NCBI GenBank assembly: GCA_964645155.1
Contig: CAZYBG010000003.1
Location: 7,093 to 71,092, forward strand
Origin: an uncultured Rhodobacterales bacterium
Lineage (GTDB): Bacteria > Pseudomonadota > Alphaproteobacteria > Rhodobacterales > Rhodobacteraceae
Direction: 5' to 3'
DNA: 64,000 bases
The position numbers and the translations under genes were made by a program. Positions 129 through 24,331 of the stretch are shown piece by piece. Position 1 is the stretch's first letter. Each line of letters begins with the position of its first letter. The notes below the pieces were generated by a model. It was not told where the DNA came from. It did not search any database and was given only the letters and a program-made list of their open reading frames with translations.

Positions 129-145
129 CCTGACGGGACCTCCGA

Positions 146-7991: not shown

Positions 7992-8681
7992 CGCCCTGCC
8001 CTTTACCCGTCCGCTGCCGCCCTAACGCTCACCGCGCTTTCCGGTTGCACCGAACGGCTGTCGGCCCTGCATCCGGCCGGACCGGCGGCGGCGACCATCG
8101 CGACCTTGTGGTGGATCCTGCTCGGCGGGGCTGCGCTGATCTTCCTGTTCGTGATGCTGCTCCTCGCGCTCGCGCTGCGGGCGCGGCCGGGTGCCGGCCG
8201 CGGCCCGGCGCAGGCGGGCGAGCGTGTCTGGCTCTGGGGCCTGGGGCTTGCCTTTCCGCTCGTCGTTCTGGCCGCGCTCACCGCCTACGGGCTGACGGTG
8301 GGCGAGCGGCTGCGGCCGCGCCCGTCGGACCGCGTGGTGACGGTCGGCGCCGAGGCCCGGCAATGGGCGTGGCGCTTTACCTATGCCGACGCGCCGGGGC
8401 TGGCGACCGAGGGCGTCCTCCATATCCCGGCGGGCCGGCCGGTCGATGTGCGGATCACCTCGCAGGACGTGATCCATTCCTTCTGGGTGCCGCGGCTCGC
8501 CGGTAAGCTCGACGCGGTACCGGGCCACGTGAACGTCCTGCGCATCGAGGCGGACCGGCCCGGCGAATATGCCGGCGTCAGCAGCGAATACAGCGGGCCG
8601 GGCTATCTCGACCACGGCTTCGCGGTGATCGCGCACGACCCCGCGCAGTGGCCGGCAGCACTGTCGGAGGCCACCCGATGA
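7920..8681 (+). CDS. Heme-copper oxidase subunit II, QoxA/CyoA-like (lipoprotein signal, CuA ligands lost)
   Basis: Lipobox and following block LTALSGC-TERLSALHPAGPAA resemble QoxA/CyoA (..GGC..LDPKGP.A). Two TM helices. Cupredoxin domain with DVIHSFWVP, but the CuA motif C-x-E-x-C-G-x2-H-x2-M reads SSEYSGPGYLDH. The start is uncertain: GTG 7920 is the nearest canonical start upstream of the lipobox, and TTG 8106 is the alternative. Confidence 0.7.
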   Translation: MKAFAHADRVDQRLVAILHHLVGHRPALYPSAAALTLTALSGCTERLSALHPAGPAAATIATLWWILLGGAALIFLFVMLLLALALRARPGAGRGPAQAGERVWLWGLGLAFPLVVLAALTAYGLTVGERLRPRPSDRVVTVGAEARQWAWRFTYADAPGLATEGVLHIPAGRPVDVRITSQDVIHSFWVPRLAGKLDAVPGHVNVLRIEADRPGEYAGVSSEYSGPGYLDHGFAVIAHDPAQWPAALSEATR

Positions 8682-11565: not shown

Positions 11566-12723
11566 TCAGGCCAGGCGCTCGAGGATCGCGGCGACGCGGC
11601 CGGCCGCGGCGGGGCCGGGGCGCTGGGCATGGAACCTGGCGAGCCGCAGCGCGACCGCGCCGAGGCACCAGTCGAAGCCCGGTCCCGCAGCGGCCCGCAC
11701 CATGGCAGCGGCGGCCGCGACGGTCGCCGTCGGCAGCGCGCCGTCGGCCTCGGCCTGCCAGAGCCGCCCGTAAAGCTGCGCAAGGTCGTAGTCGGGCGGG
11801 CCGAGCGCGAGGCTTTCGGTGTCGATCAGCACGCTTCGCCGGCCGTCGAGGAACAGGTGCTCGAGCTTCATGTCGCCATGGATCGGCCGGAGGGCGAGGC
11901 GGGGCACGCGTGCCTCGAGGCGGGCGAGGATGGCCTTCATCGGCGCCAGCGCGGCGGGGACGGTGACGCGGGCGAGGTCGAGGCAGTCGCGCCCGCGGCG
12001 CAGGAGCGCCGCGGCACCGAGCGTGCGGACCGGGGTGACCCGTGCCCGCCAGAGCCGGGCGAGCGCGTCGATGGCCTGGCCCATCGGCGCGGGGTCGCCG
12101 GCGGCAGCAAGCGCTGCCTCGAGCGGGATGCCGGGCGCCGCACCGTAGCCGATGGCGGCCAGCGCGGCGTCGGTCCCGGTGACTGGCGCGACGCCCACGG
12201 GCGTGCGGCGCAGCGCATCGGCCAGCGCCGCGTTGACCTGCGCAAGCGCCTGCACCGGCTCGTCGCGGATCAGCTTGACGTAGGCGGCCGCACCATCGGC
12301 CCGGGCGCAGCGGAACGTGCAGGAGAGGCCCGGCCGGTAGCGAAGCAGGACCGGCACGCCGGCCGGCGCGCCGCCGATCAGGGCCGCACCGGCCTCGGGG
12401 TAGGTCTTGAGGAACGCGCGGATCTCGGGCATCCGGTGATCCTGCGGGAACGGCTCGAAAAGCGCGCGGGTGTCGCGGTCGAAGACTGCGGCGCGGTTCC
12501 GATCAGCCAGCCGGCTGGCCTTGTCGCCGGCGAAGAGCCAGAGCGTTCCCTGGCCGGCCACCCCCTGCCCCGGCCCGCCGATCGAGAGCTGGACGATCGC
12601 GCGCTGTCCGGCCCGATAGCGCAGCCGCATCACCTCCACCCGCTCGGCCGCCGCGATCCGGCGCAGCGCGGCGGCATCAAGGCGGCTCAGCCCGGGCAGC
12701 GCCGGGTCGTCAATCGCGATCAT
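11566..12723 (-). CDS. Protein-kinase-like fold phosphotransferase (APH / Kdo-WaaP-like), paralog 1
   Basis: ATG 12723 (MIAIDDPALPGL). Catalytic loop IHGDMKLEHLFL and metal-binding block LIDTESL. Last gene of the REC-GT operon, overlapping the upstream gene by 14 nt. Confidence 0.65.
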   Translation of the reverse strand: MIAIDDPALPGLSRLDAAALRRIAAAERVEVMRLRYRAGQRAIVQLSIGGPGQGVAGQGTLWLFAGDKASRLADRNRAAVFDRDTRALFEPFPQDHRMPEIRAFLKTYPEAGAALIGGAPAGVPVLLRYRPGLSCTFRCARADGAAAYVKLIRDEPVQALAQVNAALADALRRTPVGVAPVTGTDAALAAIGYGAAPGIPLEAALAAAGDPAPMGQAIDALARLWRARVTPVRTLGAAALLRRGRDCLDLARVTVPAALAPMKAILARLEARVPRLALRPIHGDMKLEHLFLDGRRSVLIDTESLALGPPDYDLAQLYGRLWQAEADGALPTATVAAAAAMVRAAAGPGFDWCLGAVALRLARFHAQRPGPAAAGRVAAILERLA

Positions 12724-13957
12724 CGCGCAGCGCCTCGCGCAGCAGGGAGCCGAGCACCGCATCGGACATCCCGGTGAAGGCATGGATCATGGCAAGCCGG
12801 AGGAGCGCCGCCCGCCGCCAGGGCCAGAGCCCCGGCCGCGCCCGGCGCGGCAGTGTGCCGGCGAGGGCGGCCGCGGCCGCAGCGGTATGGGTCCGGCCGA
12901 TCAGCCCGGCGAGGACAAGATGCGCCTGATAGTTCCCTGCGTCGAGCGCCGGATCGCCGAGGCAGAGCGTATCGAAATCGAGAACCCCGATGCGGCTCCG
13001 CGTCGCGCGGAGCTGCTTTTCGTGCAGGTCGCGGTGGCAAGGCGCGAGCGGACCCGCCGCCGCCAGCCGCGCCGAGACATCCGCCACCGGCCGGCGCAGC
13101 GCCACGGCCAAATCGGGAAAGGTCGCCGCCGTCCGCGCCAGCCACTGGCCGAGCAGCGCCGCCTCGTCGGTCCCCTGATGGCGCGGCAGGTCGCTGACCG
13201 GCAGCGCCTGCAGCGCCGCGATCGCCGCGCCGATCCGCGCGCCGGCAGCGGGGTCGAAGGCCGCGGGCGCCTGCCCCGGCAGTGCCGAGATCAGCGACAG
13301 CCCCAGTGTCTCGACCTGGCCCAGAGGCTCCGGGATGCGAAGCACCGGCGCGTCGGCCAGCGCGCGCCAGAGGGCGAGGTGCCGGTGCGCACGCGCGGCG
13401 GCCTCGCCGCACTTGACCGTGCGGAGCCGGGCATAGAGTACGCGGGCCCCCAGATCGAGCCGCAGCACCGCGCGCCTGCCCAGGCGGTGGGCGGCCAGCG
13501 TGACGCGCACCGGCCCCGGATCCCGGCCGAGAAGTGCCGCCAGAACCTCGCGCGCGAAGCCCGCGTCGTGCAGCAGCCGCAGCCCCGGCAGCCGCGCGTC
13601 GAGCCCCGGCCCGCGCAGGACCAGCCCGCGGGCCGGATCGGCGACGACCGGCGTCGCGGCCAGACCCTCGCGCTGGCCGTTGCGCCGCTTGCGAAGGCTT
13701 GCGGCCTCTTGCCGGGCATGGCCTTCGGGGTCGTCCGGCACATGCTCGGCAAGAACGATCCGCTGCTGCCCGTCACGCATCCGGGCGCGGAACTGGAACT
13801 GCACCGGGCGGTGGCCGGGAAAGTGCGTCCGCTCGAGGACCAGCCCGAGGGGCGCTTCGCCCAGATGCGCGGCGAGGCTTTCGGTCGAGGGCCCCTGCCG
13901 CAGGACGGTGGCGAGCGCGCCCTCGCCGCGGCGCCGACCGATGCAGGGCGCAGTCAT
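12710..13957 (-). CDS. Protein-kinase-like fold phosphotransferase (APH / Kdo-WaaP-like), paralog 2
   Basis: ATG 13957 in an ATGA overlap with the ABC gene stop. Catalytic loop CHRDLHEKQL and VLDFDTL block. N-lobe similar to paralog 1 (LPGL..L.DA). Confidence 0.65.
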   Translation of the reverse strand: MTAPCIGRRRGEGALATVLRQGPSTESLAAHLGEAPLGLVLERTHFPGHRPVQFQFRARMRDGQQRIVLAEHVPDDPEGHARQEAASLRKRRNGQREGLAATPVVADPARGLVLRGPGLDARLPGLRLLHDAGFAREVLAALLGRDPGPVRVTLAAHRLGRRAVLRLDLGARVLYARLRTVKCGEAAARAHRHLALWRALADAPVLRIPEPLGQVETLGLSLISALPGQAPAAFDPAAGARIGAAIAALQALPVSDLPRHQGTDEAALLGQWLARTAATFPDLAVALRRPVADVSARLAAAGPLAPCHRDLHEKQLRATRSRIGVLDFDTLCLGDPALDAGNYQAHLVLAGLIGRTHTAAAAAALAGTLPRRARPGLWPWRRAALLRLAMIHAFTGMSDAVLGSLLREALRDDRD

Positions 13958-15723
13958 GTCCCGACCTTCCGTGCCCCCTCGGGCGGGCGGTCGGCGAAGC
14001 GCCCGTCGCGCAGCTCCACGGCCCGGTCGGCCAGCGACAGCGACAGCGCGTCGTGGGCGACGAGCAGCGTGGTGCGCCCGGCCGCGGCCCGGCAGAGCCC
14101 GGCGAGCAGGCTCTGCGCGGTGGCGCCGTCGAGGCCGGTGAGCGGCTCGTCGAGGATGAGGATCGGCGCATCGCGCAGGATCGCCCGGGCGATGGCGATG
14201 CGCTGCCGCTGGCCGCCCGACAGCGTCTCGCCGCGTTCGCCGAGCACCGTCTCGTAGCCGTCGGGCAGCGCGCGGACAAAGCCGTCGGCCTCGGCCGCCC
14301 GCGCGGCGGCCACGATCTCCTCCTCGGTCGCGTCGAGGCGACCGTAGGCGATGTTGTCGCGCACCGTCGTGCCGAACAGAACGCTGTCCTGCAGCACGAC
14401 CGAGATGTTGTTGCGCAGGCTGTCGAGCGTAAAGTCGCGCAGATCCCGCCCGTCGATCCGCACGCTGCCCGCCGCGGGGTCGTAGAACCGCATCAGGAGC
14501 CGCGCGACGGTCGACTTGCCGGCGCCGCTGGGGCCGACCAGCGCCACGACTTCGCCGGGGCGGACCTCCAGGCTTGCGCCCCGCAGGACCGGCGCACCGC
14601 CGGGATAGGCGAACGTCACGTCGTCCACCTTCACGCGGCCCTCGAACCGCGGCGCGGCGACGGCGTCGGGGCGTTCGGCCACGTCGGGCGCGAGGTCGAA
14701 GATCTCGAGCAGGCGCTCGCCAGACGCGGTTGCCTTCGCGACCCGCGCCATCATCGCCGCCATCTTGCGGACCGGCTTGTAGAGCGTCGCGAGATAGGCG
14801 GTGAAGACCAGCAGGTCGCCGGGGCTGATCGCGCCGCCGCGGACCCGCATCACGCCGTACCACAGCACCAGCGCGGTCCCGAGCGCCAGGAGTACCTGCG
14901 TCACCCGGTCCATGTTCGCGGCAAGCTTGGTCGTCACGACCCCGGCTTCGGCCGAGGAGTTGTTCTGCCGGGCGAAGCGTTCCTCCTCGTGCGCCTCGCG
15001 CGCGAAGCCCTTCACCACGTTGATCGCCGAGATGCCCTCGGTCATCACCACCGCGATCTTCCCCTCCTTTCGGCGCTGCCGGCGCGCCGCGCCTCGGATC
15101 CGCGTGCCGAAATGGCGCGCGACCAGCCACAGCGCCGGCAGGATCGCCAGCGCAGCCAGCGTCAGCCGCCAGTCGAGCCAGGCCATCACCGCGACTGTCA
15201 ACCCGATCACCAGCGTCCGGGCGGCGAAAAACACCGCCGCGTCGATCAGCAGGTCGCGCATCATCCGAACGTCGCCGGTCAGCCGCGAGATGATATCCCC
15301 CGAAGAGGCCGTGTCGTGGAACGAATGCGACAGCCGCTGCACGTGCCGGTAGAGGTCGAGCCGGATCTCGGCCACGACCTTCTGGCCGACGGCGGCGATG
15401 AGGTATGCCTGCGCGAAGCCCGCCGCGCCCGCGACGAGCGCGATGGCGAGAATCGCGCCGGCCGAGGCCGCAAGCAGGCCGTCCCCGGCGCCGAAAGTCG
15501 CGATCATCCAGCCGGTCACCGGGTCGGGCTGCGGTTGCGGAAGCAGGATCCCGTCGAACACGACCTTGAGCGGCCAGGGCCGCAGCACCTCGGCGACGGC
15601 GACCGCGATCATTGCGAGGAATCCCAGCGCAAGCTTCCTCCGGTGGGGGCGCAGATGCGGCCCCATCCGGCGAAAGAGGCGCACCAGCGCCCCGGCTTCG
15701 ACCGCGCGCCGCCGGCCGCTCAT
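13954..15723 (-). CDS. ABC exporter, fused permease/ATPase (MsbA/NdvA-type)
   Basis: 589 aa. Six-TM N-terminal domain followed by Walker A GPSGAGKST, signature LSGGQRQRIAIARAIL and Walker B LILDEP. Confidence 0.85.
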   Translation of the reverse strand: MSGRRRAVEAGALVRLFRRMGPHLRPHRRKLALGFLAMIAVAVAEVLRPWPLKVVFDGILLPQPQPDPVTGWMIATFGAGDGLLAASAGAILAIALVAGAAGFAQAYLIAAVGQKVVAEIRLDLYRHVQRLSHSFHDTASSGDIISRLTGDVRMMRDLLIDAAVFFAARTLVIGLTVAVMAWLDWRLTLAALAILPALWLVARHFGTRIRGAARRQRRKEGKIAVVMTEGISAINVVKGFAREAHEEERFARQNNSSAEAGVVTTKLAANMDRVTQVLLALGTALVLWYGVMRVRGGAISPGDLLVFTAYLATLYKPVRKMAAMMARVAKATASGERLLEIFDLAPDVAERPDAVAAPRFEGRVKVDDVTFAYPGGAPVLRGASLEVRPGEVVALVGPSGAGKSTVARLLMRFYDPAAGSVRIDGRDLRDFTLDSLRNNISVVLQDSVLFGTTVRDNIAYGRLDATEEEIVAAARAAEADGFVRALPDGYETVLGERGETLSGGQRQRIAIARAILRDAPILILDEPLTGLDGATAQSLLAGLCRAAAGRTTLLVAHDALSLSLADRAVELRDGRFADRPPEGARKVGT

Positions 15724-16892
15724 GCCGCGGCGCTTTCGGCGGCGGCGAGCCGCAGGACCGCCCGGGCGTTGCGGGTCCAGTCATGCCGCGCGCCCTCGGC
15801 GGCGGCGGCGCGGGCCATCCGGCGGCATGCGGCCGGGCTGCGCGAGAGGCGCAGCATCTCGGCCGCGAGTGCGCCGGCATCGCCCGGCGGCAGGAGGACC
15901 GCGGCGGCCGAGCCGCTGAGCAGTTCCGACGTCTGGCCGATGTCGCTGGCCAGCACCGGCCGGCCCATGGCGAGGTATTCGTAGAGTTTGAGCGGCGAGA
16001 AATAGTGCGTCTCCGATGCGGGATAGGGCGCGGTCGCCACATCCATCCGCGCGATCAGCGGCGGCAGGGCGGCGTGGTCGACCCACCCCGCCAGTGTCAT
16101 CGCCCCGGCGATTCCCGCGCCGGCGACGAAGCCCTCGATCCAGCCGCGTTTCGGCCCGTCGCCGAGGACGAGGAGATGCGCCCGCGGCTCGGCCGCGCGA
16201 AAGCCGCGGAACGCCTCCATCAGCACATCGACGCCGTGCCACATCTTCAGCGATCCGGTGAAGCCGACGACAAAGGACCCCGCGGGGATGCCCGGCAGAT
16301 CGGCCGGCGCCACATCGGGGCGGAAATGCGCGGTGTCGACCGCGTTGCCGACCACATGGACGCGGCCCGCCGCCGCGCCGGCGCCGAGCAGCCAGTCCGC
16401 GACCTGCCCCGAGACGGCGACAAGCGCGCTTGCCCCGGCGATGACCTCGGCCTCGATCGCCGCGGCCTCGGCCTCGCAGACGAGGCTCCGGAACGCCGCC
16501 TGCTCGAGGCGGAGCGGCGCGTTGACCTCGACCACCGCCGGCACGCCCAGCCGGCGCCCGGCGCGAATGCCCGCGGCCGACCAGAGCGAGTAGCGTTCGT
16601 AGATCAGGTCGAAGGGCCACTCCGCATGCAGCGCCACCAGGCGCGCCGCGATCGCGTCGGCCTGCGCGATCGCGGCGCGTTCCTTGTCGCCGCGGCCGGC
16701 TCCGGCGACGGTCTGGCCGACTTCCTCGACGATCAGCCCGCGGGGCAGCCCCTCGCCGCGACGCGCGGCGACGGCGCGCGCCTCGTGGCCAAGCGCCGCG
16801 AAGGCGCGCATCATCTCCTGGACGTGGATCGAGGCGCCCTTCTCGCCGAAGACCGGGATGCCGCGATCGGCGCTGACATAGGCGATGCGCAT
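15720..16892 (-). CDS. Glycosyltransferase family 4
   Basis: Start MRIAYVSADRGIPVFGEKGASIHVQE. C-terminal GT-B block FSPLKLYEYLAMGRPVLAS. ATGA overlap with the ABC gene and 1-nt TGATG overlap upstream. Confidence 0.8.
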   Translation of the reverse strand: MRIAYVSADRGIPVFGEKGASIHVQEMMRAFAALGHEARAVAARRGEGLPRGLIVEEVGQTVAGAGRGDKERAAIAQADAIAARLVALHAEWPFDLIYERYSLWSAAGIRAGRRLGVPAVVEVNAPLRLEQAAFRSLVCEAEAAAIEAEVIAGASALVAVSGQVADWLLGAGAAAGRVHVVGNAVDTAHFRPDVAPADLPGIPAGSFVVGFTGSLKMWHGVDVLMEAFRGFRAAEPRAHLLVLGDGPKRGWIEGFVAGAGIAGAMTLAGWVDHAALPPLIARMDVATAPYPASETHYFSPLKLYEYLAMGRPVLASDIGQTSELLSGSAAAVLLPPGDAGALAAEMLRLSRSPAACRRMARAAAAEGARHDWTRNARAVLRLAAAESAAA

Positions 16893-18106
16893 CAGGCGGC
16901 CTCTCCCTCGAGGATCAGCGCGGGGTTCAGCAGAAGCCGCCGCAGCACGCCCGCATTGGCTTGGAGATCGAAGAGCAGTTCGGCCCGCGCCCGGCCGGCG
17001 CATCCCATGGCCCGTGCCCGGGCCGGATCGGCGAGCACGATTGTCAGCACGTTGGCCAGCGCCTCGGCATCGCCCGGCGGGCAGAGCTGCCCGGTCACGC
17101 CGTCCTCGACGATCTCGGGCCCGCCCGAGACCGTGGTGGTGACGACCGGCAGCGCGCAGGCCATCGCCTCCAGCAGCACGGTCGGCAGCCCGTCGCGGTC
17201 GCCGGTATCGGTCACGACGCAGGGCAGGACGGCGGCCTCGGCCCGCGCCATGCGCCCGGCCAGCACCTCCTGCGGCAGCGGCGGCTCCAGGGTGATCCGG
17301 TGCTGCAGCCCCAGCGCGACGATCCGCGCGCGCAGGTCGGCTTCGCCCGGCCCGCCGCCAATCAGCGCCAGCCGGAACTCCACGCCCCGCGCCGCCAGGA
17401 TGGCGCAGGCCTCGACCAGCACCTCGAAGCCCTTCTTCGGCACCAGCCGGCCCACCGCGATCAGTTGCCCCCGCCGGCGGGTGCGGGCCGGGGCGAAGGC
17501 CCCGAGGTCGATCCCGTTGTAGAGCCGCACGATCCGCGCCTCGGGGCAGAGCGCGCGCAGGTGGCGCGCATTGTAGTCGGACACGGTGACGACGAAGGCG
17601 GCCTGCCGCAGCTTCGCCCGGCGCATCGCCGCGTCGGCCTCGGGCGTGACATAGGTGTGGTAGATGTCCCTGGCATGCGCGGTAAACGAATAGGTGCCGC
17701 CGATGGCCCGCGCGGCGAGGCAGGCCACGGTGGTCGCGTCCGAGCCGAAATGCGCGTGCAGATGGCTGATGCCGCGTGCGCGCGCGGCCTCGGCGACCGC
17801 CTCGGCCTTCGCCAGCAGCGCCGCGGTCTCGCGGGGCGTCTTGCCCGAGAACAACGCGGCATCGCCCGGCGCAGGCGTCCCGCCGGCGTCCCGCGCGGCG
17901 TTCTTCAGCACGATGACCTCGGCCTTCAGGTCGGCGAGGCGGGCGTGGCGCGGTTCGTCCGGCGGCTGCAGCAGCGAGAACACATGCGCCTCGGCCCCCG
18001 CCGCCTCGTGGGCGAGCAGCTCGTTCAGGATGAAGGTCTCGCTGAACCTCGGAAACCGCTTGAGCACATAGCCGATGCGGCGGCTGGCGTCAGAGGGCGC
18101 GGGCAT
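16892..18106 (-). CDS. Glycosyltransferase family 4 (WcaL-like)
   Basis: Start MPAPSDASRRIGYVLKRFPRFSETFILNE. GT4 block GDRDGLPTVLLEAMACALPVVTT. Overlaps the upstream gene by 17 nt. Confidence 0.8.
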   Translation of the reverse strand: MPAPSDASRRIGYVLKRFPRFSETFILNELLAHEAAGAEAHVFSLLQPPDEPRHARLADLKAEVIVLKNAARDAGGTPAPGDAALFSGKTPRETAALLAKAEAVAEAARARGISHLHAHFGSDATTVACLAARAIGGTYSFTAHARDIYHTYVTPEADAAMRRAKLRQAAFVVTVSDYNARHLRALCPEARIVRLYNGIDLGAFAPARTRRRGQLIAVGRLVPKKGFEVLVEACAILAARGVEFRLALIGGGPGEADLRARIVALGLQHRITLEPPLPQEVLAGRMARAEAAVLPCVVTDTGDRDGLPTVLLEAMACALPVVTTTVSGGPEIVEDGVTGQLCPPGDAEALANVLTIVLADPARARAMGCAGRARAELLFDLQANAGVLRRLLLNPALILEGEAA

Positions 18107-19664
18107 GGGGTGCCTCCTCGCCGGCCTGAGGATCGCTCTCGCGCAGCAGCGATGCCAGCACGCCGGCGGCACGGGTCACGCCGTCGAGATCGGGCAGCGC
18201 GCGCGGGACGGGCGGCGGGGTCCGCATCAGCCGGGCCAGCGCCTCGGCGGACAGCGCCTCGCGGTCGAGATGCCGGGCGAGGCCGTGCGCCGCCAGCGCC
18301 TCGGCGCGCATCCGCTGCTCGGCCGACGGGCCGAGCCGCGGGACGGTGACGATCGGGCAGCCGACGGCGAGCGCCTCGTTGATCGTGTTATAGCCGGTCA
18401 TCGTGATGAGAAGGTCGGCCTCGGAGAGGAGCGCGGGGAAATCGGCGACGTGCCGGCGCAGGTCGATCCCGGCGGCGCGCGCGCGCCCCTCCGCCTCGTC
18501 CTGCAGCTCGCTGTCCATCAGCGGGCCGGTCACCACGGTGACCTGCGGGCGGCCGCGCCGGGGAAGCCGGGAGACGGCCCCGATCGCCGCCTCGATCAGC
18601 GGGAACGCGTCGCGCCCGCCGCCACCCGAGACAACGACCCGCCGCGGTGCGCCCTGCCCGGCCGGGCGCGTCCTGCCGCGGCGGGCGGTGGTGACGATGC
18701 CGCAGGGCGTGACCCGGCCTGGCAGCAGCGCGTCGAGCCCGTACGCCGCGGCGGTGGGGAAGAAGCCCGCATCACCATAGACGAGGACGCGGTCGTAGAG
18801 CGACGTGATCGCCCGGTCGGTGCCGGCGGCGGCCCAGGCGGCGCGCAGCCGCCCGGGCTCGTCGAGGATGTCGCGCAGGCCGAGCACGGTACGCGTCCGC
18901 CCGTCGTCGCGGAGGCGCTCGAGCACCGGCCGCAGCTCTCCCATCGCGCCCAGGGGCTCGTGGTCCACCAGAAAGAGGTCGGGGCGGAAGGCGCCGATCA
19001 CGCCGTCGATCACGCCCATGCGCATCGCCCGCGTCGTGGCGGCATCGAGCCGGAGCGAGCCGGCCTGGAACCGGTGGCGGCCGAGCTTCGCCAGCGACGG
19101 CAGCTTGACGTAGTCGACGCCGGGCACCGGGTCGAACATCATGCCGGCGGCGCAGCCGACGAGCATCAGCACCGAAAGGCCCGGCACCTGCGCCGCCAGC
19201 CGGGCGGCGATGGCCGAGTTCCGCCGCATGTGGCCAAGCCCGATGGTGTCGTGCGAGTACATCACGACCGAGGGCCCGGACCGCGGCCGCCCGACCGGCG
19301 GCCCGGCCTCGTTCAGCAGCGCCGCAGCGAGTTCCCGCAGGCGCGACAGCGCGAAGGGCTTGGCGAGGAAGGCCGCCACGGTCAGCTCCTCGGCGCGGGC
19401 GCGGCTTGCCACGCTGTCCTGCCCGGTCATCACGATGACCGGAACCTGCGCCAGGCACTCGGCGGCCTCGCCGATCACGCTCAGGCCGTTGCCGTCGCCA
19501 AGCGAGATGTCGATGATCACGAGGTCGAACCGCCCGGCGGCCAAGGCGGCGCGGGTCGCAGCGGCGGTGGGCGCGTGCACCAGGTGCACGCCCTCTCCCG
19601 CCAGGGCGCGGGCGATGTTGCGGGCCAGCACCGGTTCGTCTTCGGAAAGCAGGATGCGTTTCAT
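18090..19664 (-). CDS. Response-regulator receiver domain fused to a MurG-like (GT28 / Glyco_trans_1_3) glycosyltransferase
   Basis: ATG 19664 (MKRILLSEDEP). REC residues are intact (DE pair, VIIDISLGDGNG phospho-Asp, VMTG, AKPF). After a Pro/Gly linker comes a GT-B domain: HDTIGLGHMRR, VVVSGGGG, LLITMTGYNTINEAL. Confidence 0.8.
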   Translation of the reverse strand: MKRILLSEDEPVLARNIARALAGEGVHLVHAPTAAATRAALAAGRFDLVIIDISLGDGNGLSVIGEAAECLAQVPVIVMTGQDSVASRARAEELTVAAFLAKPFALSRLRELAAALLNEAGPPVGRPRSGPSVVMYSHDTIGLGHMRRNSAIAARLAAQVPGLSVLMLVGCAAGMMFDPVPGVDYVKLPSLAKLGRHRFQAGSLRLDAATTRAMRMGVIDGVIGAFRPDLFLVDHEPLGAMGELRPVLERLRDDGRTRTVLGLRDILDEPGRLRAAWAAAGTDRAITSLYDRVLVYGDAGFFPTAAAYGLDALLPGRVTPCGIVTTARRGRTRPAGQGAPRRVVVSGGGGRDAFPLIEAAIGAVSRLPRRGRPQVTVVTGPLMDSELQDEAEGRARAAGIDLRRHVADFPALLSEADLLITMTGYNTINEALAVGCPIVTVPRLGPSAEQRMRAEALAAHGLARHLDREALSAEALARLMRTPPPVPRALPDLDGVTRAAGVLASLLRESDPQAGEEAPHARAL

Positions 19665-19736
19665 CTGGGCCTCGTCCGATTGCCCCGACCCTGCCTGATC
19701 GCAGGCCGGGACGGGACCGTCCAGACGGGCGGGGCT

Positions 19737-19748
19737 GGGGCAAATGCC
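19737..19748. promoter_or_regulatory. GGGGCAAATGCC element, copy 1 (REC-GT / histidine kinase divergent region)
   Basis: The identical 12-mer recurs at 24254-24265. Related GGGGCATATCC (19760-19770) and GGGAATATGCC (19788-19798) lie nearby. Confidence 0.4.
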
Positions 19749-19881
19749 GGGCACCTTCTGGGGCATATCCCCCAGGGCTGGCGGACCGGGAATATGCCGC
19801 CGGCCCAATCGTATACCTCAGGGTGAGGGCAGGCCGCCTGTGCCTTCCGTTGATTGCGCGAGCTCGCGCCGGGGTCTAAAC

Positions 19882-21291
19882 ATGAGCCGGGGACGGACCA
19901 CAGTCATGGGATTGCTCGACGTGTCGACCATCCTCGCGCTGCGGCACTCGCCGCACTACACCAAGGTGCTGTCGCTCTTCGTGGTCACGAGCTTCGTCGC
20001 GATCTTCGCGACGACCAGTCTGCTCAGCGGATACCTGGCCAACTACATGACCCGCCACATGATGCAGCGCGATGCCGAGGTGACGATGGAGTTCCTCAAC
20101 TCCATCATCCGGGCCGAGGACGCCAGCGACGACTTCTTCGGCGACACGGCCGACATCCGCGCCCCGGCGACGGCGGAGTTCTTCGCCCGCGTCGCGCGGC
20201 TGCCGCATGTGTTCCGCGCCAACGTCTACTCGAGGAGCGGCCGGGTGCTCTGGTCCAGCGATGCCGAGATGATCGGCCGGACCTTCGCCGACAACGCCGA
20301 GCTTGCCGCCACGCTGAAGGGCGAGCTGCACCCCGAGATCGTGGCGGTGGAGCCCGTCGGGAAGGACGAGCATGTCGGCCTGCCCGACACGGTCGAGGAG
20401 TTCATCACGTTCCACATCCCGATCTGGTCACGCGACGGCAGGATCGTGGTCGGCGCGGTCGAGGTCTACAAGGCGCCGCAGAGCCTGCTCGACGCGATCC
20501 GCGGGATCGAGCGGCTGGCGTGGATCGATGCGCTCATCGCCGGCGCGGTCCTGTTCGCGCTGCTGGTGGCGGTCGTTGCCTATTCCACCCGGATCCTGCG
20601 CCGGCAGGAAGCGCGCCTCGTCGAGGCCGAGCGCCTCGCAGTGGTGGGCGAGATGGCGTCCGCCGTCGCGCACGGGCTGCGGAACCCGCTGGCCGCGATC
20701 CGCTCCTGCGCCGAACTGCTGGCCGAGGACGATCTGCCCGACAGCAGCCGCCGCGGCATGCTGGACATCATGAACCAGGTCGACCGGCTCGAGACGTGGA
20801 TCCGCTCGTTCCTCAAGCGGACCCGCGAGGCGCCCGCCTCGGCATCCGACATCGCCCATGTCGACTTGGTCCTGCAGCGTTGCATCCAGGGTTTCCAGAC
20901 GCAGCTCAGAAAGCGCGGGATCCGGGTCGAGATCAGCGGGTCGACCGACACGCCGGTCGTCGCCGCCCGCTCGGAGGAGCTGGAGCAGATCCTCAACACC
21001 ATCCTGTCGAACGCGGTCGAGGCGATGAAGACGGGCGGCGTGCTCTCGCTCGGCTGGCACGCGGTGCCGGGCGGGCGCGTTGCCATCGACATCGCAGACA
21101 CCGGCCCGGGCGTGAGCGACGAGCAGATGAAGCGCCTGTTCGTGCCGTTCCAGACCGGCAAGGCGGCGGGCCTCGGCGTCGGGCTCGCGCTCGGCCGGCG
21201 CATCGCCGAACGGATCGGCGGCACGCTCGACCTGAAGAACCGCCCCGATCGCGGGGTGGAAGTGACGCTGACCGTTCCTGCGAGGGCCTGA
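19882..21291 (+). CDS. Sensor histidine kinase (two TM helices, periplasmic loop, HisKA + HATPase_c)
   Basis: ATG 19882. H-box EMASAVAHGLRNPLAAI, N-box ILSNAVEAM, G-boxes DTGPGV and GLGVGLAL. Divergent from the REC-GT operon. Confidence 0.85.
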   Translation: MSRGRTTVMGLLDVSTILALRHSPHYTKVLSLFVVTSFVAIFATTSLLSGYLANYMTRHMMQRDAEVTMEFLNSIIRAEDASDDFFGDTADIRAPATAEFFARVARLPHVFRANVYSRSGRVLWSSDAEMIGRTFADNAELAATLKGELHPEIVAVEPVGKDEHVGLPDTVEEFITFHIPIWSRDGRIVVGAVEVYKAPQSLLDAIRGIERLAWIDALIAGAVLFALLVAVVAYSTRILRRQEARLVEAERLAVVGEMASAVAHGLRNPLAAIRSCAELLAEDDLPDSSRRGMLDIMNQVDRLETWIRSFLKRTREAPASASDIAHVDLVLQRCIQGFQTQLRKRGIRVEISGSTDTPVVAARSEELEQILNTILSNAVEAMKTGGVLSLGWHAVPGGRVAIDIADTGPGVSDEQMKRLFVPFQTGKAAGLGVGLALGRRIAERIGGTLDLKNRPDRGVEVTLTVPARA

Positions 21292-21292
21292 C

Positions 21293-22510
21293 ATGAGTGA
21301 CATCCTGATCGTTGAAGACGAAACCGTCCTGGCGCGGTCGATGGTGAGCTTTCTGGAACGGCGCGGCTTCTCCGCGGTCTATGCGGTCGATGCGGCCTCG
21401 GCCCGGACGCTGGCCGAGCGGGAACGCCCGCGGCTCGCCATCCTTGACTACAAGCTGAACGACGATGACGGCCTCGATCTCCTGGCCTGGATGCGCGCCG
21501 CCGACCCGCGGGTGCAGGTGGTCATGATGACCGGCCACGGCGATGTCGCGGTCGCGGTCGAGGCGATGAAGCGCGGCGCCCGGGACTTCCTGGTGAAGCC
21601 GACGCCGCTGGCCGCCATAGCGTCGATCGCGCGCGAGCTGATGCTGGACGAGTTCCAGGGCGGGCTCGACCGCACCGGCGCGGAGCGGATCGTCGGCCGG
21701 TCCTCGGCGGCCAACGCGCTGCGCACCTCGGTCCGCAAGCTCGGCCGGCCCGCGCCGAACGGCGCCCGGGCCGGCGTGCTGGTCGTCGGCCCGCAGGGCG
21801 CCGGCAAGACGCTCGCCGCCACCGCGCTGCACGAGGAGGGCGCGCCCGATAGCCCGCTTGTCGTCCTCGACTGCGCACTCGCTGTCGGCGACATCGGTGA
21901 CGCCGTGGCCCGCGCAGGGCGCGGCACGCTTCTGCTGCGCCATGTTGCCGCGCTCCGCACCGAGGAACAGGCGGCGCTTCTCGGCGCGCTCGAGGCAGCC
22001 GAGCATCCGCCCGCGCTGATCGCCACGACAACCGGGCACCTGACGCCCGGGCCGGAGTTCCTGCCGGGCCTGCTCTATCGCATCCAGGTGGGCTGGATCG
22101 ACATCCCGCCGCTGGTCGATCGCGCCGCCGACGTGCTGCCGATCGCCGACATCTTAGCCCGCCGCATCGCGCGCGACCGCGGCGAAGCGCGGCCGCGGTT
22201 CAGCGCCGCCGCCCGGGCGCGGCTGGTCGAGCATGACTGGCCGGGCAACGTGGCGGAACTCGCGAACTGCATCGGGCGCGCCATGCTCCTGCAGTCGGAC
22301 GGCACGATCGAGGCCGACCATGTCCGGCTGATCGGCCGTGGGCCGGGGGACGAGGACGGGATGCCGACCCTGCACGCGCTCGAGGTCAGCGCGATCACCC
22401 GCGCGCTCAGTCGGACCGGGGGCAACGTCTCGCGGGCGGCCGAGCTCCTCGGGATCAGCCGCGACACGCTGCGCTACCGGATGGAGAAGTTCGAGGTGCC
22501 ACGGCACTGA
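21293..22510 (+). CDS. NtrC-family response regulator with degenerate AAA+ domain (no GAFTGA) and Fis-type HTH
   Basis: REC domain (ILDYKLNDDDG, MMTGH, VKP). Walker A-like GPQGAGKT. The region where ESELFGHEKGAFTGA..LFLDEI normally sits reads LDCALAVGDIGDAVARAGRGTLLLRHV. WPGNVAEL block and C-terminal HTH GNVSRAAELLGISRDTLRYRM. Confidence 0.8.
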   Translation: MSDILIVEDETVLARSMVSFLERRGFSAVYAVDAASARTLAERERPRLAILDYKLNDDDGLDLLAWMRAADPRVQVVMMTGHGDVAVAVEAMKRGARDFLVKPTPLAAIASIARELMLDEFQGGLDRTGAERIVGRSSAANALRTSVRKLGRPAPNGARAGVLVVGPQGAGKTLAATALHEEGAPDSPLVVLDCALAVGDIGDAVARAGRGTLLLRHVAALRTEEQAALLGALEAAEHPPALIATTTGHLTPGPEFLPGLLYRIQVGWIDIPPLVDRAADVLPIADILARRIARDRGEARPRFSAAARARLVEHDWPGNVAELANCIGRAMLLQSDGTIEADHVRLIGRGPGDEDGMPTLHALEVSAITRALSRTGGNVSRAAELLGISRDTLRYRMEKFEVPRH

Positions 22511-23180
22511 GGACGCCGAGCACCTCGGCCGCGAAATCGGGGCGCCCGGCCCCCCGCAGCTTGAGGTGCCGGCGGATCAGCGCGAGCCGCAGCAGCCGCG
22601 CGAAGCGGGCGGCATCGCAGGCGCCGCCGAGCGCCCGCCATGCGGCCGGCACGGCGGCCCGCCAGTGGTCGAGCCGTCCGCGGAACGAGGGGCCCGCCCA
22701 GGCGCTGGTGGCGAGATGCGCGACGAAGTTCGCGAGATCGGCCTCGGCCGGGCCCAGCGCCATGTCGTCGAGATCGACGATCCAGACCTCGCCGCCGGGG
22801 CTGGCGACAAGCTGTCCGAGGTGAAAGTCGCCGTGCAGCGTCGCCGCCCCGGTCGGGACCGGTCTGTCGAGCGCCCTTGCGATGGCGGGCGGCACCGCCC
22901 CCTCGAGCCGCGGCCTGATCCGCAGTGCGGGGTCGTAGGCCGGCAGCCCCGGCACCACCGCCCGCTGCAGCGCGAGCAGCGGCGCAAGCAGGTCGGCGAG
23001 CGGCAGGGTCACGATGCCCGGCCCGCTGCCGCCCTCGATCCGGGCGAAGATCACGGCACCGGGCGCCGCGCCCCGCCACGCCTCGGGCGTCGCCACCCCC
23101 TGGGCGCGAAGCACCCGGCTCCGCCGCAGCGCCTCGGCGGCCCGGGCGGGGCTGTCGTGGTGCTTGGCGAAGCCGGTCAT
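22455..23180 (-). CDS. Short protein-kinase-like fold phosphotransferase (APH-like), paralog 3
   Basis: ATG 23180 in an ATGA overlap with the upstream GT gene. Catalytic loop LHGDFHLGQLV and IVDLDD block. Its 3' end overlaps the convergent NtrC-like gene by 56 nt. Confidence 0.6.
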   Translation of the reverse strand: MTGFAKHHDSPARAAEALRRSRVLRAQGVATPEAWRGAAPGAVIFARIEGGSGPGIVTLPLADLLAPLLALQRAVVPGLPAYDPALRIRPRLEGAVPPAIARALDRPVPTGAATLHGDFHLGQLVASPGGEVWIVDLDDMALGPAEADLANFVAHLATSAWAGPSFRGRLDHWRAAVPAAWRALGGACDAARFARLLRLALIRRHLKLRGAGRPDFAAEVLGVLSAVAPRTSPSGSAACRG

Positions 23181-24175
23181 GCCCGGCCCAGGATCTGGCC
23201 CAGGATCAAGGCCGCCGCCCGCGCAGCGCCATCTGGGCCGAGGTCCACCGGGGCACGCCGCCGCGGCCGTGCGACCTGCCCGACAAGCCAGTCCGCCGCC
23301 GCGTGCACCTGCGCCGGGTCGAGCGCGTGGCCAAGCCGCGGCCCCCAGAGCCGCGCCCGTGCCGCCTGATCGTCGAGGCTCCGCGGGATCGCCGCGAGCA
23401 GGGCGGGGGTGTCGGTGCTCGCCAGTTCCAGCACCGAATTGTAGCCGGCGGTAGAGATCGCGAGATCGGCGGCGCGGAACACCGCATCGAGATCGGGGCC
23501 GGGGTCGAAGACCTCGTCGGCCTCGCCCAGCGCGGCGCCGGCGGCCCGCGGCCCGAGCGCCTGCCGCACGTAGAGGGCGCCGTCGAGCTGCGCGCGGGCC
23601 AGCGCGATGACCCGGTCGAGCAGCGGGTAGAGCGCCGCGCGGCTCTGCTCGGTGCCGCCGCCGCCGGTGGCCAGAACGACGCCGCCGGGCTGCGCGCCGG
23701 GGCCGCGGACACCGGCCCGCCGCGCGATCCAGCCCACCGCCTCGACCGTCCGCGCGAAGCCGGGACCGGCGGGCGGCATCCAGTGACCGGGCGGGTTCGG
23801 CACGATCACCGCATCCCACGGCCGGCCGCCGCCCCGGCGGAACCCCTCGATGCTGGCCGCCGGCGTCTCCCGCAGGACCTGGATCATCGGCAGGTCGAGC
23901 GTGGCGGCATCGGGCAGCCGCAACGTGTCGAGCACCGCGGCGGCCGCCCCGCAGTCGCGCAGCGCCGCGGCCATCGCGCTGCGGGGCACGACGAGGATCG
24001 CCTGGAACGCCGCCCGATCGGCATCGGTCAGCCCGTCGGGTTCTGCGTTGCAGAGCAGGATCGGCCGCGCCGCGCCGGACGCCGCGCGCACCGCCCGGGC
24101 GATGGCGGCGGCCCGGCGGAGATGCCCAAGGCCGGACCGGCCCGTGGCAAGGAATGCGATGGGGCGGTTCGTCAT
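23177..24175 (-). CDS. MurG-like (GT28 / Glyco_trans_1_3) glycosyltransferase, paralog of the GT domain of the REC-GT fusion
   Basis: Start chosen at ATG 24175, which has AGGA 4 nt upstream; the track start GTG 24214 lacks an RBS. Motifs GRSGLGHLRR, VVLATGGGG and LAISTAGYNSVLEL parallel those of the REC-GT protein. Confidence 0.7.
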   Translation of the reverse strand: MTNRPIAFLATGRSGLGHLRRAAAIARAVRAASGAARPILLCNAEPDGLTDADRAAFQAILVVPRSAMAAALRDCGAAAAVLDTLRLPDAATLDLPMIQVLRETPAASIEGFRRGGGRPWDAVIVPNPPGHWMPPAGPGFARTVEAVGWIARRAGVRGPGAQPGGVVLATGGGGTEQSRAALYPLLDRVIALARAQLDGALYVRQALGPRAAGAALGEADEVFDPGPDLDAVFRAADLAISTAGYNSVLELASTDTPALLAAIPRSLDDQAARARLWGPRLGHALDPAQVHAAADWLVGQVARPRRRAPVDLGPDGAARAAALILGQILGRA

Positions 24176-24253
24176 CGTCCTGCCTGCACCAGAGGTCCCG
24201 GCGACAGTTGCCACAACCCGGCGCCCGGCGCGACCGCCACAGCCGCGGCGACC

Positions 24254-24267
24254 GGGGCAAATGCCCC
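24254..24267. promoter_or_regulatory. GGGGCAAATGCCCC palindromic element, copy 2 (upstream of the GT28-like/kinase operon)
   Basis: Arms GGGGCA / TGCCCC around AA. Followed by the ATGCC-AGTC-GGCAT inverted repeat at 24295-24308. Confidence 0.4.
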
Positions 24268-24331
24268 GCGAGACGCGCCCGACGGAATCAGGAAATGCCA
24301 GTCGGCATCACGTGATAGAGTGCGCCTTGCG

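What the first reader, a model, noticed from the sequence alone, without database searches (positions are those of the whole stretch)
18090..19664. Receiver domain fused directly to a MurG-like glycosyltransferase
The 524-aa protein starts with a complete CheY-like receiver: acidic pair SEDE, phospho-acceptor context VIIDISLGDGNG, then VMTG and AKPF. After a Pro/Gly-rich linker it continues into a GT-B glycosyltransferase (GLGHMRR, VVVSGGGG, TGYNTINEAL). A stand-alone paralog of that GT domain is encoded at 23177-24175. The cognate-looking histidine kinase is divergently adjacent and also has a conventional DNA-binding partner. One sensor would therefore control both transcription and, post-translationally, a glycosyltransfer step. 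Enzyme-output receivers are well known for cyclic-di-GMP enzymes and methylesterases, but I know of no characterised REC-glycosyltransferase.
Basis: partly seen in the sequence, partly recalled or inferred. Interest (0 to 1): 0.75.

Follow-up and report, generated by a model that had tools for sequence, protein, structure and literature searches.

The report
Receiver domain fused to a glycosyltransferase
The gene really does encode a two-component receiver joined to a sugar-transferring enzyme, but it is a widespread, uncharacterised family that opens a conserved sugar-assembly gene cluster in marine Rhodobacterales, so it is a good test case for direct phospho-control of a glycosyltransferase rather than a one-off oddity.

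Summary
ORF 18090-19664(-) encodes 524 aa: a complete CheY-like receiver, a variable 14-residue linker and a GT-B glycosyltransferase of the GT1/GT28 (MurG/OleD-like) kind. It is not a frameshift artefact. At least 120 homologue clusters (50-70% identity, about 520 aa) carry both domains, and the receiver is as conserved as the enzyme. It is not unique either; databases already list these proteins as "response regulator" or "predicted glycosyltransferase".

The gene opens a translationally coupled operon: REC-GT, GT4, GT4, MsbA-like ABC exporter and two APH-like kinases. A histidine kinase and an NtrC-family regulator are divergent from it. A second operon encodes a remote GT relative and a third APH-like kinase. 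This layout recurs in 20 other loci. A palindrome, TGGGGSAWWTSSCCCA, lies about 100 bp upstream of REC-GT in all 17 loci scanned and upstream of the second operon in most of them.

Sister cassettes keep the same GT-GT4-GT4-ABC-APH order with a receiver-less first enzyme. The receiver is therefore a lineage-specific addition to the first enzyme in the gene order.

Phosphotransfer from the adjacent kinase, the effect on catalysis and the product are inferred. The "paralog" is only a remote relative, and the partner regulator lacks the σ54-contact motif. I found no characterised REC-GT-B. Verdict: new variant of a known kind, moderate interest.

The parts
18090..19664 (-). REC-GT: receiver (aa 1-117), variable linker (118-131), GT-B glycosyltransferase (132-~510). 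First gene of the operon.
   Evidence: Pfam REC and PF04101. 55-sequence alignment with invariant E8 D9 E10 D52 F99 K102 P103 and the GT motifs. AF2 model pLDDT 87.7, pTM 0.84. Foldseek matches to GT1 enzymes and MurG.
16892..18106 (-). GT4 glycosyltransferase a. Its start overlaps the REC-GT stop by 17 nt.
   Evidence: Pfam Glycos_transf_1 and Glyco_transf_4. Syntenic in the related loci that extend far enough.
15720..16892 (-). GT4 glycosyltransferase b, with a 1-nt overlap with the gene upstream.
   Evidence: Pfam. Start MRIAYV taken from homology.
13954..15723 (-). Fused TMD-NBD ABC exporter of the MsbA, HepA and NdvA type.
   Evidence: ABC_membrane plus ABC_tran. It scores below every NCBIfam cut-off; the best is MsbA_rel at 422 bits against 780.
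12710..13957 (-). APH-family kinase B (415 aa).
   Evidence: PF01636 E 2e-16. Weak LxmK-like similarity.
11566..12723 (-). APH-like kinase A (385 aa), the last gene of the operon.
   Evidence: Weak APH(6) and LxmK hits. Orthologues are annotated PF01636. Syntenic.
19759..19774 (.). Palindromic operator TGGGGCATATCCCCCA in the REC-GT/kinase divergent intergenic region. A weaker half-site copy lies 23 bp nearer to REC-GT (about 19736-19750).
   Evidence: A site is centred 87-109 bp upstream of the REC-GT ATG in all 17 loci scanned.
19882..21291 (+). Sensor histidine kinase: two predicted TM helices flanking an extracytoplasmic domain of about 170 aa, then HisKA and HATPase_c.
   Evidence: Pfam. 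AtoS/ZraS-like, below cut-offs. TM segments read from the sequence.
21293..22510 (+). NtrC-family response regulator: REC, shortened and degenerate AAA+, lid and Fis-type HTH. It lacks GAFTGA and the Walker B DE.
   Evidence: Pfam. Sequence read directly. Contrast with the intact σ54 activator in sister locus L031.
22455..23180 (-). Short APH-like kinase C (241 aa). Its 3' end overlaps the regulator gene convergently by 56 nt.
   Evidence: PF01636 E 5e-8. Syntenic.
23177..24175 (-). Remote GT-B relative ('GT28p'), with GLGHLRR, GGGG and GYNS motifs. ATG 24175 has an AGGA ribosome-binding site.
   Evidence: Syntenic.
24253..24268 (.). Second copy of the operator (CGGGGCAAATGCCCCG), centred 85 bp upstream of the GT28p ATG.
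   Evidence: Equivalent sites upstream of GT28p in 10 of 15 loci.

Best explanation
REC-GT is an enzyme-output response regulator.

Shown:
- It is a real, conserved fusion of a receiver with intact phospho-chemistry residues and a GT-B enzyme that keeps the nucleotide-sugar motif.
- It is the first gene of a conserved, translationally coupled cassette: REC-GT, GT4, GT4, ABC exporter and two APH-like kinases.
- The cluster has its own kinase and regulator pair and a cluster-specific palindromic operator at each of its promoters.

Inferred:
- The membrane kinase phosphorylates D52 of REC-GT as well as the co-operonic NtrC-family regulator.
- The regulator binds the palindrome and sets transcription of both operons.
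- Phospho-D52 switches the conserved α4-β5-α5 face of the fused receiver. This changes the activity of the attached GT, by relief of autoinhibition or by dimerisation; which of the two, and in which direction, is unknown.
- The switch would gate the first glycosyl transfer from a UDP-sugar, probably UDP-glucose. The resulting cytoplasmic glycoconjugate would then be extended by the GT4 enzymes, phosphorylated by the APH-like kinases and exported by the ABC transporter.
- The result would be two-tier control of one pathway by one sensor: gene expression plus enzyme activity.
For: Fusion and domains.

Receiver chemistry. E8, D9, E10, D52, F99, K102 and P103 are invariant and position 80 is T or S in 55 orthologues. 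The α4 segment TGQDxxxNRxRAE is almost invariant, which is unusual for receivers. The receiver is as conserved as the enzyme: mean pairwise identity 0.62 against 0.67 and 0.56 for the two GT halves, while the linker is 0.31.

Fold. The AF2 model has pLDDT 87.7 and pTM 0.84, with (βα)5 topology followed by two Rossmann-like halves. Foldseek gives E 4e-14 to 8e-12 to Kcn28, OleD, CalG1 and MurG. The donor motif ITMTGYNTINEAL...VPRLGPSAEQRMRAE aligns to OleD and to P. aeruginosa MurG.

Operon. Gene overlaps of 1-17 nt link all six genes.

Synteny. The kinase, the regulator and REC-GT are conserved together in 17 genome loci and 3 further contigs.

Operator. It lies 87-109 bp upstream of REC-GT in 17 of 17 loci. 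It is also found upstream of GT28p and of galU. Of 50 matches in 310 kb, 47 fall in the cluster's intergenic (promoter) regions.

Donor. A galU gene sits directly upstream of REC-GT in 8 loci, and other family members are fused to NAD-dependent sugar epimerases.

Sister cassettes. They keep the same gene order with a receiver-less first GT. At least two further, apparently independent fusions exist in the family, a REC-GT and a REC-PAS-GT.
Against: - No phosphotransfer, GT activity or product has been measured.
- The two receivers are only 34% identical. The fused receiver scores no better against its neighbour (40 bits) than against generic solved receivers (up to 45 bits).
- Co-variation of α1 kinase-contact residues between the two receivers was seen in Denitrobaculum (both VLGR). 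It was absent in L028, L029 and L030. Kinase sharing therefore rests on adjacency alone.
- Some sister-clade REC-GTs have lost the acidic pocket or have K replaced by R (P0124, P0128, P0129, P0140). In those lineages the receiver must work without phosphorylation.
- I could not read the model coordinates or the PAE, so the REC/GT interface is not described.
- Binding of the regulator to the palindrome is an assumption.
- There is no priming transferase, Wzx/Wzy or outer-membrane component, and the acceptor is unknown.
Confidence: 0.55

Rival explanations
1. Phosphate sink or competitor. REC-GT's receiver mainly drains or buffers phosphoryl groups from the kinase and so tunes the output of the NtrC-like regulator. 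GT activity is constitutive and insensitive to the state of the receiver.
For: One kinase sits with two receivers in every locus. Single-domain receiver sinks are well known in alphaproteobacterial systems (own knowledge).
Against: A sink does not need to be covalently fused to the first enzyme of the pathway it accompanies. The near-invariant α4 output face and the repeated independent REC fusions to this GT family point to intramolecular coupling.
Confidence: 0.12
2. Phosphorylation-independent receiver. The REC acts as a constitutive dimerisation, localisation or scaffold module for the GT, or senses something other than the adjacent kinase, such as acetyl phosphate or another kinase.
For: Related REC-GT clades have degenerate phospho-sites. 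The α1 specificity residues do not co-vary with the neighbouring regulator. In the window a second, HWE-type kinase lies next to the cluster.
Against: In the orthologue group that contains the window, all five phospho-chemistry positions and the aromatic switch are invariant or nearly so across 55 sequences. The HWE kinase is not conserved in other loci.
Confidence: 0.15
3. The GT-like domain is a sensor rather than an enzyme. It binds a nucleotide sugar or pathway intermediate and feeds back on phosphorylation of the receiver or on the kinase, so the protein is a metabolite-responsive signalling adaptor.
For: No activity has been shown. The protein scores far below every curated GT equivalog model.
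Against: The catalytic-type motifs are invariant: GLGH in the N-terminal half, and the GGGG loop, GYNxxxE and EQxxRA in the C-terminal half. Receiver-less homologues occupy the same first position in sister cassettes, where a GT is expected. Other members are fused to sugar epimerases.
Confidence: 0.08
4. Assembly or annotation artefact: two adjacent genes, a stand-alone receiver and a GT, merged by a frameshift or sequencing error.
For: None beyond the prior possibility. At 72% GC, long spurious ORFs are common.
Against: At least 120 independent homologue clusters from isolates and metagenomes have the same single ORF of about 520 aa. Third-position GC is 0.91, as expected for a real gene. 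The linker is in frame in all 55 aligned sequences.
Confidence: 0.01

Closest known systems
Enzyme-output response regulators (CheB methylesterase; PleD and WspR REC-GGDEF; RpfG REC-HD-GYP; PorX REC-PglZ)
   Same: An N-terminal CheY-like receiver with a full phospho-acceptor set is joined by a flexible linker to a catalytic domain, and a kinase is encoded nearby. The expected logic is the same: phosphorylation relieves inhibition or drives oligomerisation.
   Different: The output here is a GT-B glycosyltransferase acting directly in a biosynthetic pathway, not a signalling enzyme. No member has been studied experimentally, and I found none in PDB or in the held literature.
REC-GT2 fusion MTH_548 of Methanobacteriaceae (Galperin census, PMC5847659)
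   Same: One or two receivers fused to a glycosyltransferase. It is known only from sequence.
   Different: That enzyme is a BcsA-like GT-A/GT2 synthase (PF13641) in archaea. This one is a soluble GT-B of the GT1/GT28 kind in Alphaproteobacteria, with a different fold and mechanism class and an independent origin.
MurG (GT28) and GT1 natural-product or macrolide glycosyltransferases (OleD, CalG1, Kcn28, YjiC)
   Same: GT-B fold with two Rossmann-like halves, an N-terminal GxGH loop, a glycine-rich loop, and the C-terminal xGxxxxxE...Q..(N/R)A donor motif.
   Different: Sequence identity is 12-21%. It scores far below the MurG and MGT curated cut-offs (35 against 250, and 43.5 against 260). It has family-specific invariant motifs (YSHDTIGLGHMRRN, VDHEP, LGLRDILD). 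It is not in a cell-wall or antibiotic context, and none of those enzymes carries a receiver.
STAS-glycosyltransferases All4160 and XssP of cyanobacteria (bioRxiv 10.64898/2026.04.08.717354)
   Same: A phosphorylatable signalling domain is fused to a polysaccharide glycosyltransferase, giving post-translational control of a glycan pathway alongside two-component regulators.
   Different: Those use a STAS domain phosphorylated on Ser by a partner-switching kinase and phosphatase, not an Asp-phosphorylated receiver. They have a different GT type and a transmembrane segment.
Vibrio fischeri syp regulation: a sensor-kinase relay feeding SypG (σ54 activator) and SypE (own knowledge; Morris & Visick 2013 is cited)
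   Same: One sensory input is split between a transcriptional NtrC-family regulator and a second receiver protein that controls polysaccharide output post-translationally.
   Different: SypE acts through a kinase/phosphatase on SypA, not by being the biosynthetic enzyme itself. SypG is a true σ54 activator, whereas the regulator here lacks GAFTGA.

Membership tests
CheY-like receiver domain (PF00072) | Profile match above the curated threshold | tested here: met
   60.6 bits against a cut-off of 30.2, residues 4-112.
CheY-like receiver domain (PF00072) | Acidic pocket after β1, phospho-acceptor Asp at the end of β3, Thr/Ser at the end of β4, Lys-Pro at the end of β5, and an aromatic switch residue | tested here: met
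   E8, D9, E10, D52, T80 (T or S in homologues), K102-P103 and F99 are invariant or nearly invariant in 55 orthologues.
CheY-like receiver domain (PF00072) | (βα)5 fold | tested here: met
   AF2 secondary structure is β1α1β2α2β3α3β4α4β5α5 over residues 2-117, with pLDDT 75-98.
CheY-like receiver domain (PF00072) | Is actually phosphorylated by a histidine kinase | not testable with these tools
   Only conserved adjacency. The α1 co-variation test was inconclusive.
GT-B glycosyltransferase, GT1/GT28 clan (PF04101 C-terminal domain) | Profile match above the curated threshold | tested here: met
   42 bits against a cut-off of 22, residues 344-478.
GT-B glycosyltransferase, GT1/GT28 clan (PF04101 C-terminal domain) | Two Rossmann-like halves; structural similarity to solved GT-B enzymes | tested here: met
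   Foldseek probability 1.00, E 4e-14 to 1e-9, target-normalised TM-score 0.55-0.64 to Kcn28, OleD, CalG1, MurG and YjiC.
GT-B glycosyltransferase, GT1/GT28 clan (PF04101 C-terminal domain) | Conserved nucleotide-sugar binding signature | tested here: met
   GYNxxxE430 and E449-Q450-xx-R453-A454 are invariant and align to the OleD and MurG donor motifs.
GT-B glycosyltransferase, GT1/GT28 clan (PF04101 C-terminal domain) | Catalyses glycosyl transfer | not testable with these tools
MurG orthologue (TIGR01133) | Equivalog score above the cut-off, and a cell-wall (mur/fts) gene context | tested here: not met
   35 bits against a cut-off of 250. The context is GT4, ABC and APH genes, not dcw. It is MurG-like in fold only.
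σ54-dependent NtrC-type activator (the partner regulator, 21293-22510) | Full AAA+ σ54-interaction domain with a GAFTGA loop and Walker B DE | tested here: not met
   PF00158 matches only profile positions 12-60 of 168. PF14532 scores 45.6 bits. There is no GAFTGA, and Walker B reads LLLRHV. The intact L031 homologue has GAFTDA and LLLDEIGE.
Close paralogue of the REC-GT catalytic domain (23177-24175) | Full-length similarity, including the family-specific motifs | tested here: not met
   28% identity over 186 aa, E 1e-4. 33 bits to the family HMM, matching only the GLGHxRR loop and the C-terminal donor region. It lacks VDHEP and LGLRDILD.

The most novel reading that the evidence does not exclude
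A single membrane sensor runs a two-tier feed-forward circuit on one glycan pathway. It phosphorylates a degenerate, σ54-independent NtrC-like regulator that binds the cluster-specific palindrome. In parallel it phosphorylates a receiver built into the first glycosyltransferase, switching catalysis on or off within seconds. This would be the first demonstrated case of a GT-B enzyme controlled directly by Asp phosphorylation. It would also uncover an unknown exported, phosphorylated gluco-conjugate of marine Rhodobacterales.
Probability: 0.35. Interest if true: 0.7.

Novelty: new variant of a known kind. Interest (0 to 1): 0.5.

Why it matters
Bacterial glycan output is usually controlled through transcription or through second messengers such as c-di-GMP binding to synthases. 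A glycosyltransferase that is itself a response regulator would remove those intermediate steps. It would give a compact, genetically isolated system for asking how a receiver can gate a GT-B enzyme, a fold whose activity depends on inter-domain closure.

The system has one kinase, two receivers, one operator and one cassette. The conserved cassette (GT, GT4, GT4, ABC exporter, APH kinases) has no assigned product. The REC fusion, the dedicated sensor and the operator mark it as an environmentally switched envelope or exported glycoconjugate in abundant marine Rhodobacterales.

The finding is not a unique oddity. That lowers the surprise, but many natural variants are available for testing, including receiver-less and pseudo-receiver forms.

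Tried and rejected
1. Frameshift or artefact: rejected, because more than 120 independent full-length homologues exist.

2. Co-variation of α1 kinase-contact residues between the two receivers, as evidence for a shared kinase. Both are VLGR in Denitrobaculum L014. The pattern fails in L028, L029 and L030, so I do not count it as evidence.

3. Origin of the fused REC by duplication of the neighbouring regulator's REC. There is no support: 34% identity and 40 bits, no better than generic solved receivers.

4. Naming the organism or finding curated names. An exact look-up of the 558-aa call (P0001) found no contig. Two cluster look-ups gave no organism or informative names. The genome scan did not return the source genome, and the nearest loci are 67-68% identical, in Rhodophyticola and an uncultured alphaproteobacterium.

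5. Plasmid origin: there is no meaningful match in PLSDB.

6. RiPP or lanthipeptide reading, prompted by weak LxmK-like hits of the APH kinases. I saw no precursor-like small ORF where I looked, at 24150-24480. The scores are far below cut-off, so I dropped it.

7. Literature searches for COG4671, MJ1255/VC2487, 'REC-GT' and receiver plus GT-B found nothing relevant. Two Galperin reviews could not be opened.

8. A σ70 promoter scan of the divergent region found nothing. By eye I saw no clean σ54 promoter (GG-N10-GC) there.

9. A second protein search with the GT domain alone returned the same fused orthologues and added no diversity.

10. The REC/GT interface could not be analysed, because the model coordinates and PAE are not exposed.
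Full report

Yes. The minus-strand ORF 18090-19808 has its conserved start at ATG 19664, preceded by GGACGAGG. All 54 aligned homologues begin at the same methionine.

The 524-aa product has third-position GC of 0.91, typical of genuine genes in this 72% GC window. Pfam finds Response_reg at residues 4-112 (E 2e-16) and Glyco_tran_28_C at 344-478 (E 1.3e-10), both above the curated cut-offs.

The would-be refutation, a frameshift at the junction, is excluded by independent data. The best 120 database homologues are 50-70% identical, 516-558 aa long, and come from isolates and metagenomes. Nearly all carry both domains in one polypeptide.

**2. Anatomy of the protein**

I aligned 55 orthologues.

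- *Receiver residues.* The full set is invariant or nearly so: E8-D9-E10 (acidic pocket), D52 (acceptor), T/S80, F99 (aromatic switch) and K102-P103.
- *α4 helix.* The segment TGQDxxxNRxRAE (residues 80-92) is also nearly invariant, which is unusual for receivers. Together with β5 and α5 it forms the classical output face. I read this as evidence for a specific intramolecular or partner contact (inference).
- *Conservation by region.* Mean pairwise identity is 0.62 for the receiver, against 0.67 and 0.56 for the two GT halves. The 14-residue linker is 0.31.
- *GT invariant blocks.* These are YSHDTIGLGHMRRN, VDHEP, LGLRDILD, SGGGGRD, GYNxxxE and PRxGPSxEQRxRA.
- *Structure.* The AlphaFold2 model has pLDDT 87.7 and pTM 0.84. 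It shows a (βα)5 receiver followed by two Rossmann-like halves.
- *Fold matches.* Foldseek against PDB gives GT1 natural-product and macrolide transferases (Kcn28, OleD, CalG1) and MurG at E 4e-14 to 8e-12.
- *Donor motif.* The C-terminal signature aligns residue for residue with the nucleotide-sugar motifs of OleD and of P. aeruginosa MurG.

"MurG-like GT-B" is therefore a fair description of the fold. The protein is not a MurG orthologue, since it scores 35 bits against a cut-off of 250. No PDB entry combines a receiver with a GT-B.

**3. Genomic context**

REC-GT is the first gene of a six-gene operon whose members overlap by 1-17 nt. The order is REC-GT, GT4, GT4, a fused TMD-NBD ABC exporter of the MsbA, HepA and NdvA type, and two APH-family kinases, down to 11566.

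Divergent from it are the membrane histidine kinase (19882-21291) and, 2 nt after its stop codon, an NtrC-family regulator (21293-22510). Convergent with the regulator is a second small operon. It encodes a remote GT-B relative (23177-24175) and a short APH-like kinase (22455-23180).

This layout recurs in 17 genome loci. Sixteen are from Rhodobacterales or unclassified alphaproteobacterial MAGs: Silicimonas, Rhodophyticola, Albidovulum, Marivita, Pseudaestuariivita, Tropicibacter, Primorskyibacter and MAGs. One is from Denitrobaculum. Protein identities run from 37% to 81%. It also recurs on three further contigs that carry 55-57% identical REC-GTs.

In eight loci there is an extra gap of about 1.2 kb between the kinase and REC-GT. 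In the one I examined, Marivita L010, it holds a galU gene (UTP-glucose-1-phosphate uridylyltransferase) directly upstream of REC-GT. This points to UDP-glucose as a donor. That last step is an inference.

**4. A conserved operator**

Aligning the divergent intergenic regions revealed a 16-bp palindrome, TGGGGSAWWTSSCCCA.

- In the window it occurs exactly once without mismatch, at 19759-19774, between REC-GT and the kinase.
- It occurs once more with two mismatches, at 24253-24268, centred 85 bp upstream of the second operon's ATG.
- That makes 4 strand-matches in the window, against 0.6 expected by chance.
- Across the 17 loci, a site is centred 87-109 bp upstream of the REC-GT start in every locus. 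In about half of them (9 of 17) a weaker copy lies 23 bp downstream of it.
- Further copies lie upstream of the GT28p operon and of galU.
- Of 50 matches in 310 kb, 47 fall in the cluster's intergenic (promoter) regions.

The cluster is therefore a self-contained regulon. The obvious candidate binder is the cluster's own Fis-type HTH regulator. That is an inference and has not been tested.

The regulator is not a conventional σ54 activator. Its AAA+ domain is short, it lacks GAFTGA, and its Walker B reads LLLRHV. A sister locus has a bona fide σ54 activator with GAFTDA and LLLDEIGE.

**5. Where the fusion sits in evolution**

I searched 1.84 billion cluster representatives with the GT domain alone. 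This gave 736 clusters at E ≤ 1e-30 and 2514 at E ≤ 1e-10.

Of the 150 best, about 22 carry an N-terminal receiver. Most of the rest are stand-alone proteins of about 400 aa. A few are fused to NAD-dependent sugar epimerases, duplicated in tandem, or built as REC-PAS-GT.

The receiver-bearing forms mostly have each other as nearest neighbours. P0209 (REC-GT) and P0238 (REC-PAS-GT) sit among receiver-less relatives, which suggests at least two further independent fusions.

Stand-alone relatives at 41-44% identity open the same cassette, GT-GT4-GT4-ABC-APH(-APH). In one case the cassette sits beside a σ54-type regulator. In another it sits beside an AlgE-like outer-membrane porin. The biosynthetic cassette is therefore older and broader than the fusion, and the receiver is a lineage-specific addition to its first enzyme.

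Some sister clades have degenerate receivers, with the acidic pair lost or K replaced by R. In those lineages the domain must act without phosphorylation.

**6. Mechanism**

The best-supported reading is an enzyme-output response regulator. The kinase phosphorylates D52. The α4-β5-α5 face changes, and this alters the activity of the tethered GT-B, by relief of autoinhibition or by dimerisation. The first glycosyl transfer of the pathway is thereby gated. The co-operonic regulator sets transcription through the palindrome.

- *Shown:* the architecture, residue conservation, fold, operon structure, synteny and the operator.
- *Inferred:* phosphotransfer, the direction and size of the effect on catalysis, regulator-operator binding, the donor and acceptor, and the nature of the exported product.

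I tried to test kinase sharing through co-variation of the α1 contact residues of the two receivers. Both changed from VLAR to VLGR in Denitrobaculum. In three other informative loci the REC-GT residue changed while the regulator's did not. I treat this as inconclusive. The two receivers are only 34% identical.

The rival readings are a phosphate sink, a phosphorylation-independent scaffold, and a GT-like sensor domain. They are listed with their tests in the rivals section.

**7. Comparison with what is known**

Response regulators with enzymatic outputs are well established: CheB, PleD, WspR, RpfG and PorX. A receiver fused to a GT-A/GT2 synthase (MTH_548) was catalogued in archaea (PMC5847659). 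Cyanobacterial STAS-glycosyltransferases are a recent example of phospho-control of a fused GT (bioRxiv 10.64898/2026.04.08.717354).

I found no paper that characterises a receiver-GT-B fusion. The held library is incomplete, and two Galperin reviews could not be opened. Databases already label these proteins "response regulator" or "predicted glycosyltransferase/CheY-like". The architecture has therefore been noticed by annotation pipelines but not studied.

**8. Verdict**

It is a new, uncharacterised variant of a known kind (enzyme-output response regulators), not categorically new and not unique to this genome. Its value lies in being a compact, conserved and testable system with natural receiver-less and pseudo-receiver controls, attached to a cassette whose product is unknown. 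Interest 0.5.

Noticed in passing
window 19759-19774 and 24253-24268; L002-L019: The cluster-specific 16-bp palindrome TGGGGSAWWTSSCCCA sits at a fixed distance (about -100) from REC-GT in all 17 loci scanned. It is also found upstream of the GT28p operon and of galU. It is a likely operator of the cluster's regulator.
   Followed up: yes
window 21293-22510: The NtrC-family regulator has a shortened AAA+ domain with no GAFTGA and a degenerate Walker B (LLLRHV). It is probably σ54-independent and not an ATPase.
   Followed up: partly
L010 8978-9874 (and, by gap size only, L002, L006, L007, L009, L011, L016, L017): A galU (UTP-glucose-1-phosphate uridylyltransferase) gene is inserted between the kinase and REC-GT in Marivita L010. 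Seven other loci show the same gap of about 1.2 kb, which I did not inspect. Most of these loci have a palindrome copy in the kinase-proximal part of the gap.
   Followed up: partly
L031 5936-16451; L032 3826-14521; L033: Sister cassettes (GT-GT4-GT4-ABC-APH) have a receiver-less first GT. One sits next to an intact σ54 activator. Another sits next to an AlgE-like outer-membrane porin (PF13372) and a 657-aa APH protein.
   Followed up: partly
P0124, P0128, P0129, P0140: More distant REC-GT clades have degenerate receivers, with the acidic pair lost or the conserved Lys replaced by Arg. These are probable pseudo-receivers fused to the same GT family.
   Followed up: no
P0166, P0181, P0249, P0121, P0176, P0238: Other fusions occur in the same GT family: NAD-dependent sugar epimerase-GT, tandem GT-GT, and REC-PAS-GT.
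   Followed up: no
window about 24333-25888 (+): An HWE/HisKA_2 histidine kinase with a Cache-like N-terminal region (PhyK-like, below cut-off). It shares the 157-bp intergenic region containing the second operator with GT28p. It is not conserved next to the cluster in other genomes.
   Followed up: partly
window 22455-22510: The 3' ends of the regulator gene and the APH_C gene overlap convergently by 56 nt. The overlap is 37 nt in Silicimonas L001.
   Followed up: no
window 134-1582 and 1545-3644 (+): Adjacent GH68 levansucrase-like and GH32 (plus LamG-like) genes, a fructan synthesis and degradation pair.
   Followed up: no
window 8507-11194 (+): A cytochrome c oxidase subunit I homologue of 895 aa. 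It is much longer than the 504-position model it matches and has an unassigned C-terminal extension of about 300 aa.
   Followed up: no
REC-GT residues 187-205 (window about 19050-19106): A loop rich in invariant basic residues (K187, K193, R196, R205) is the only internal segment with pLDDT below 50. It could be a membrane-binding or acceptor-binding loop of the GT N-terminal half.
   Followed up: no
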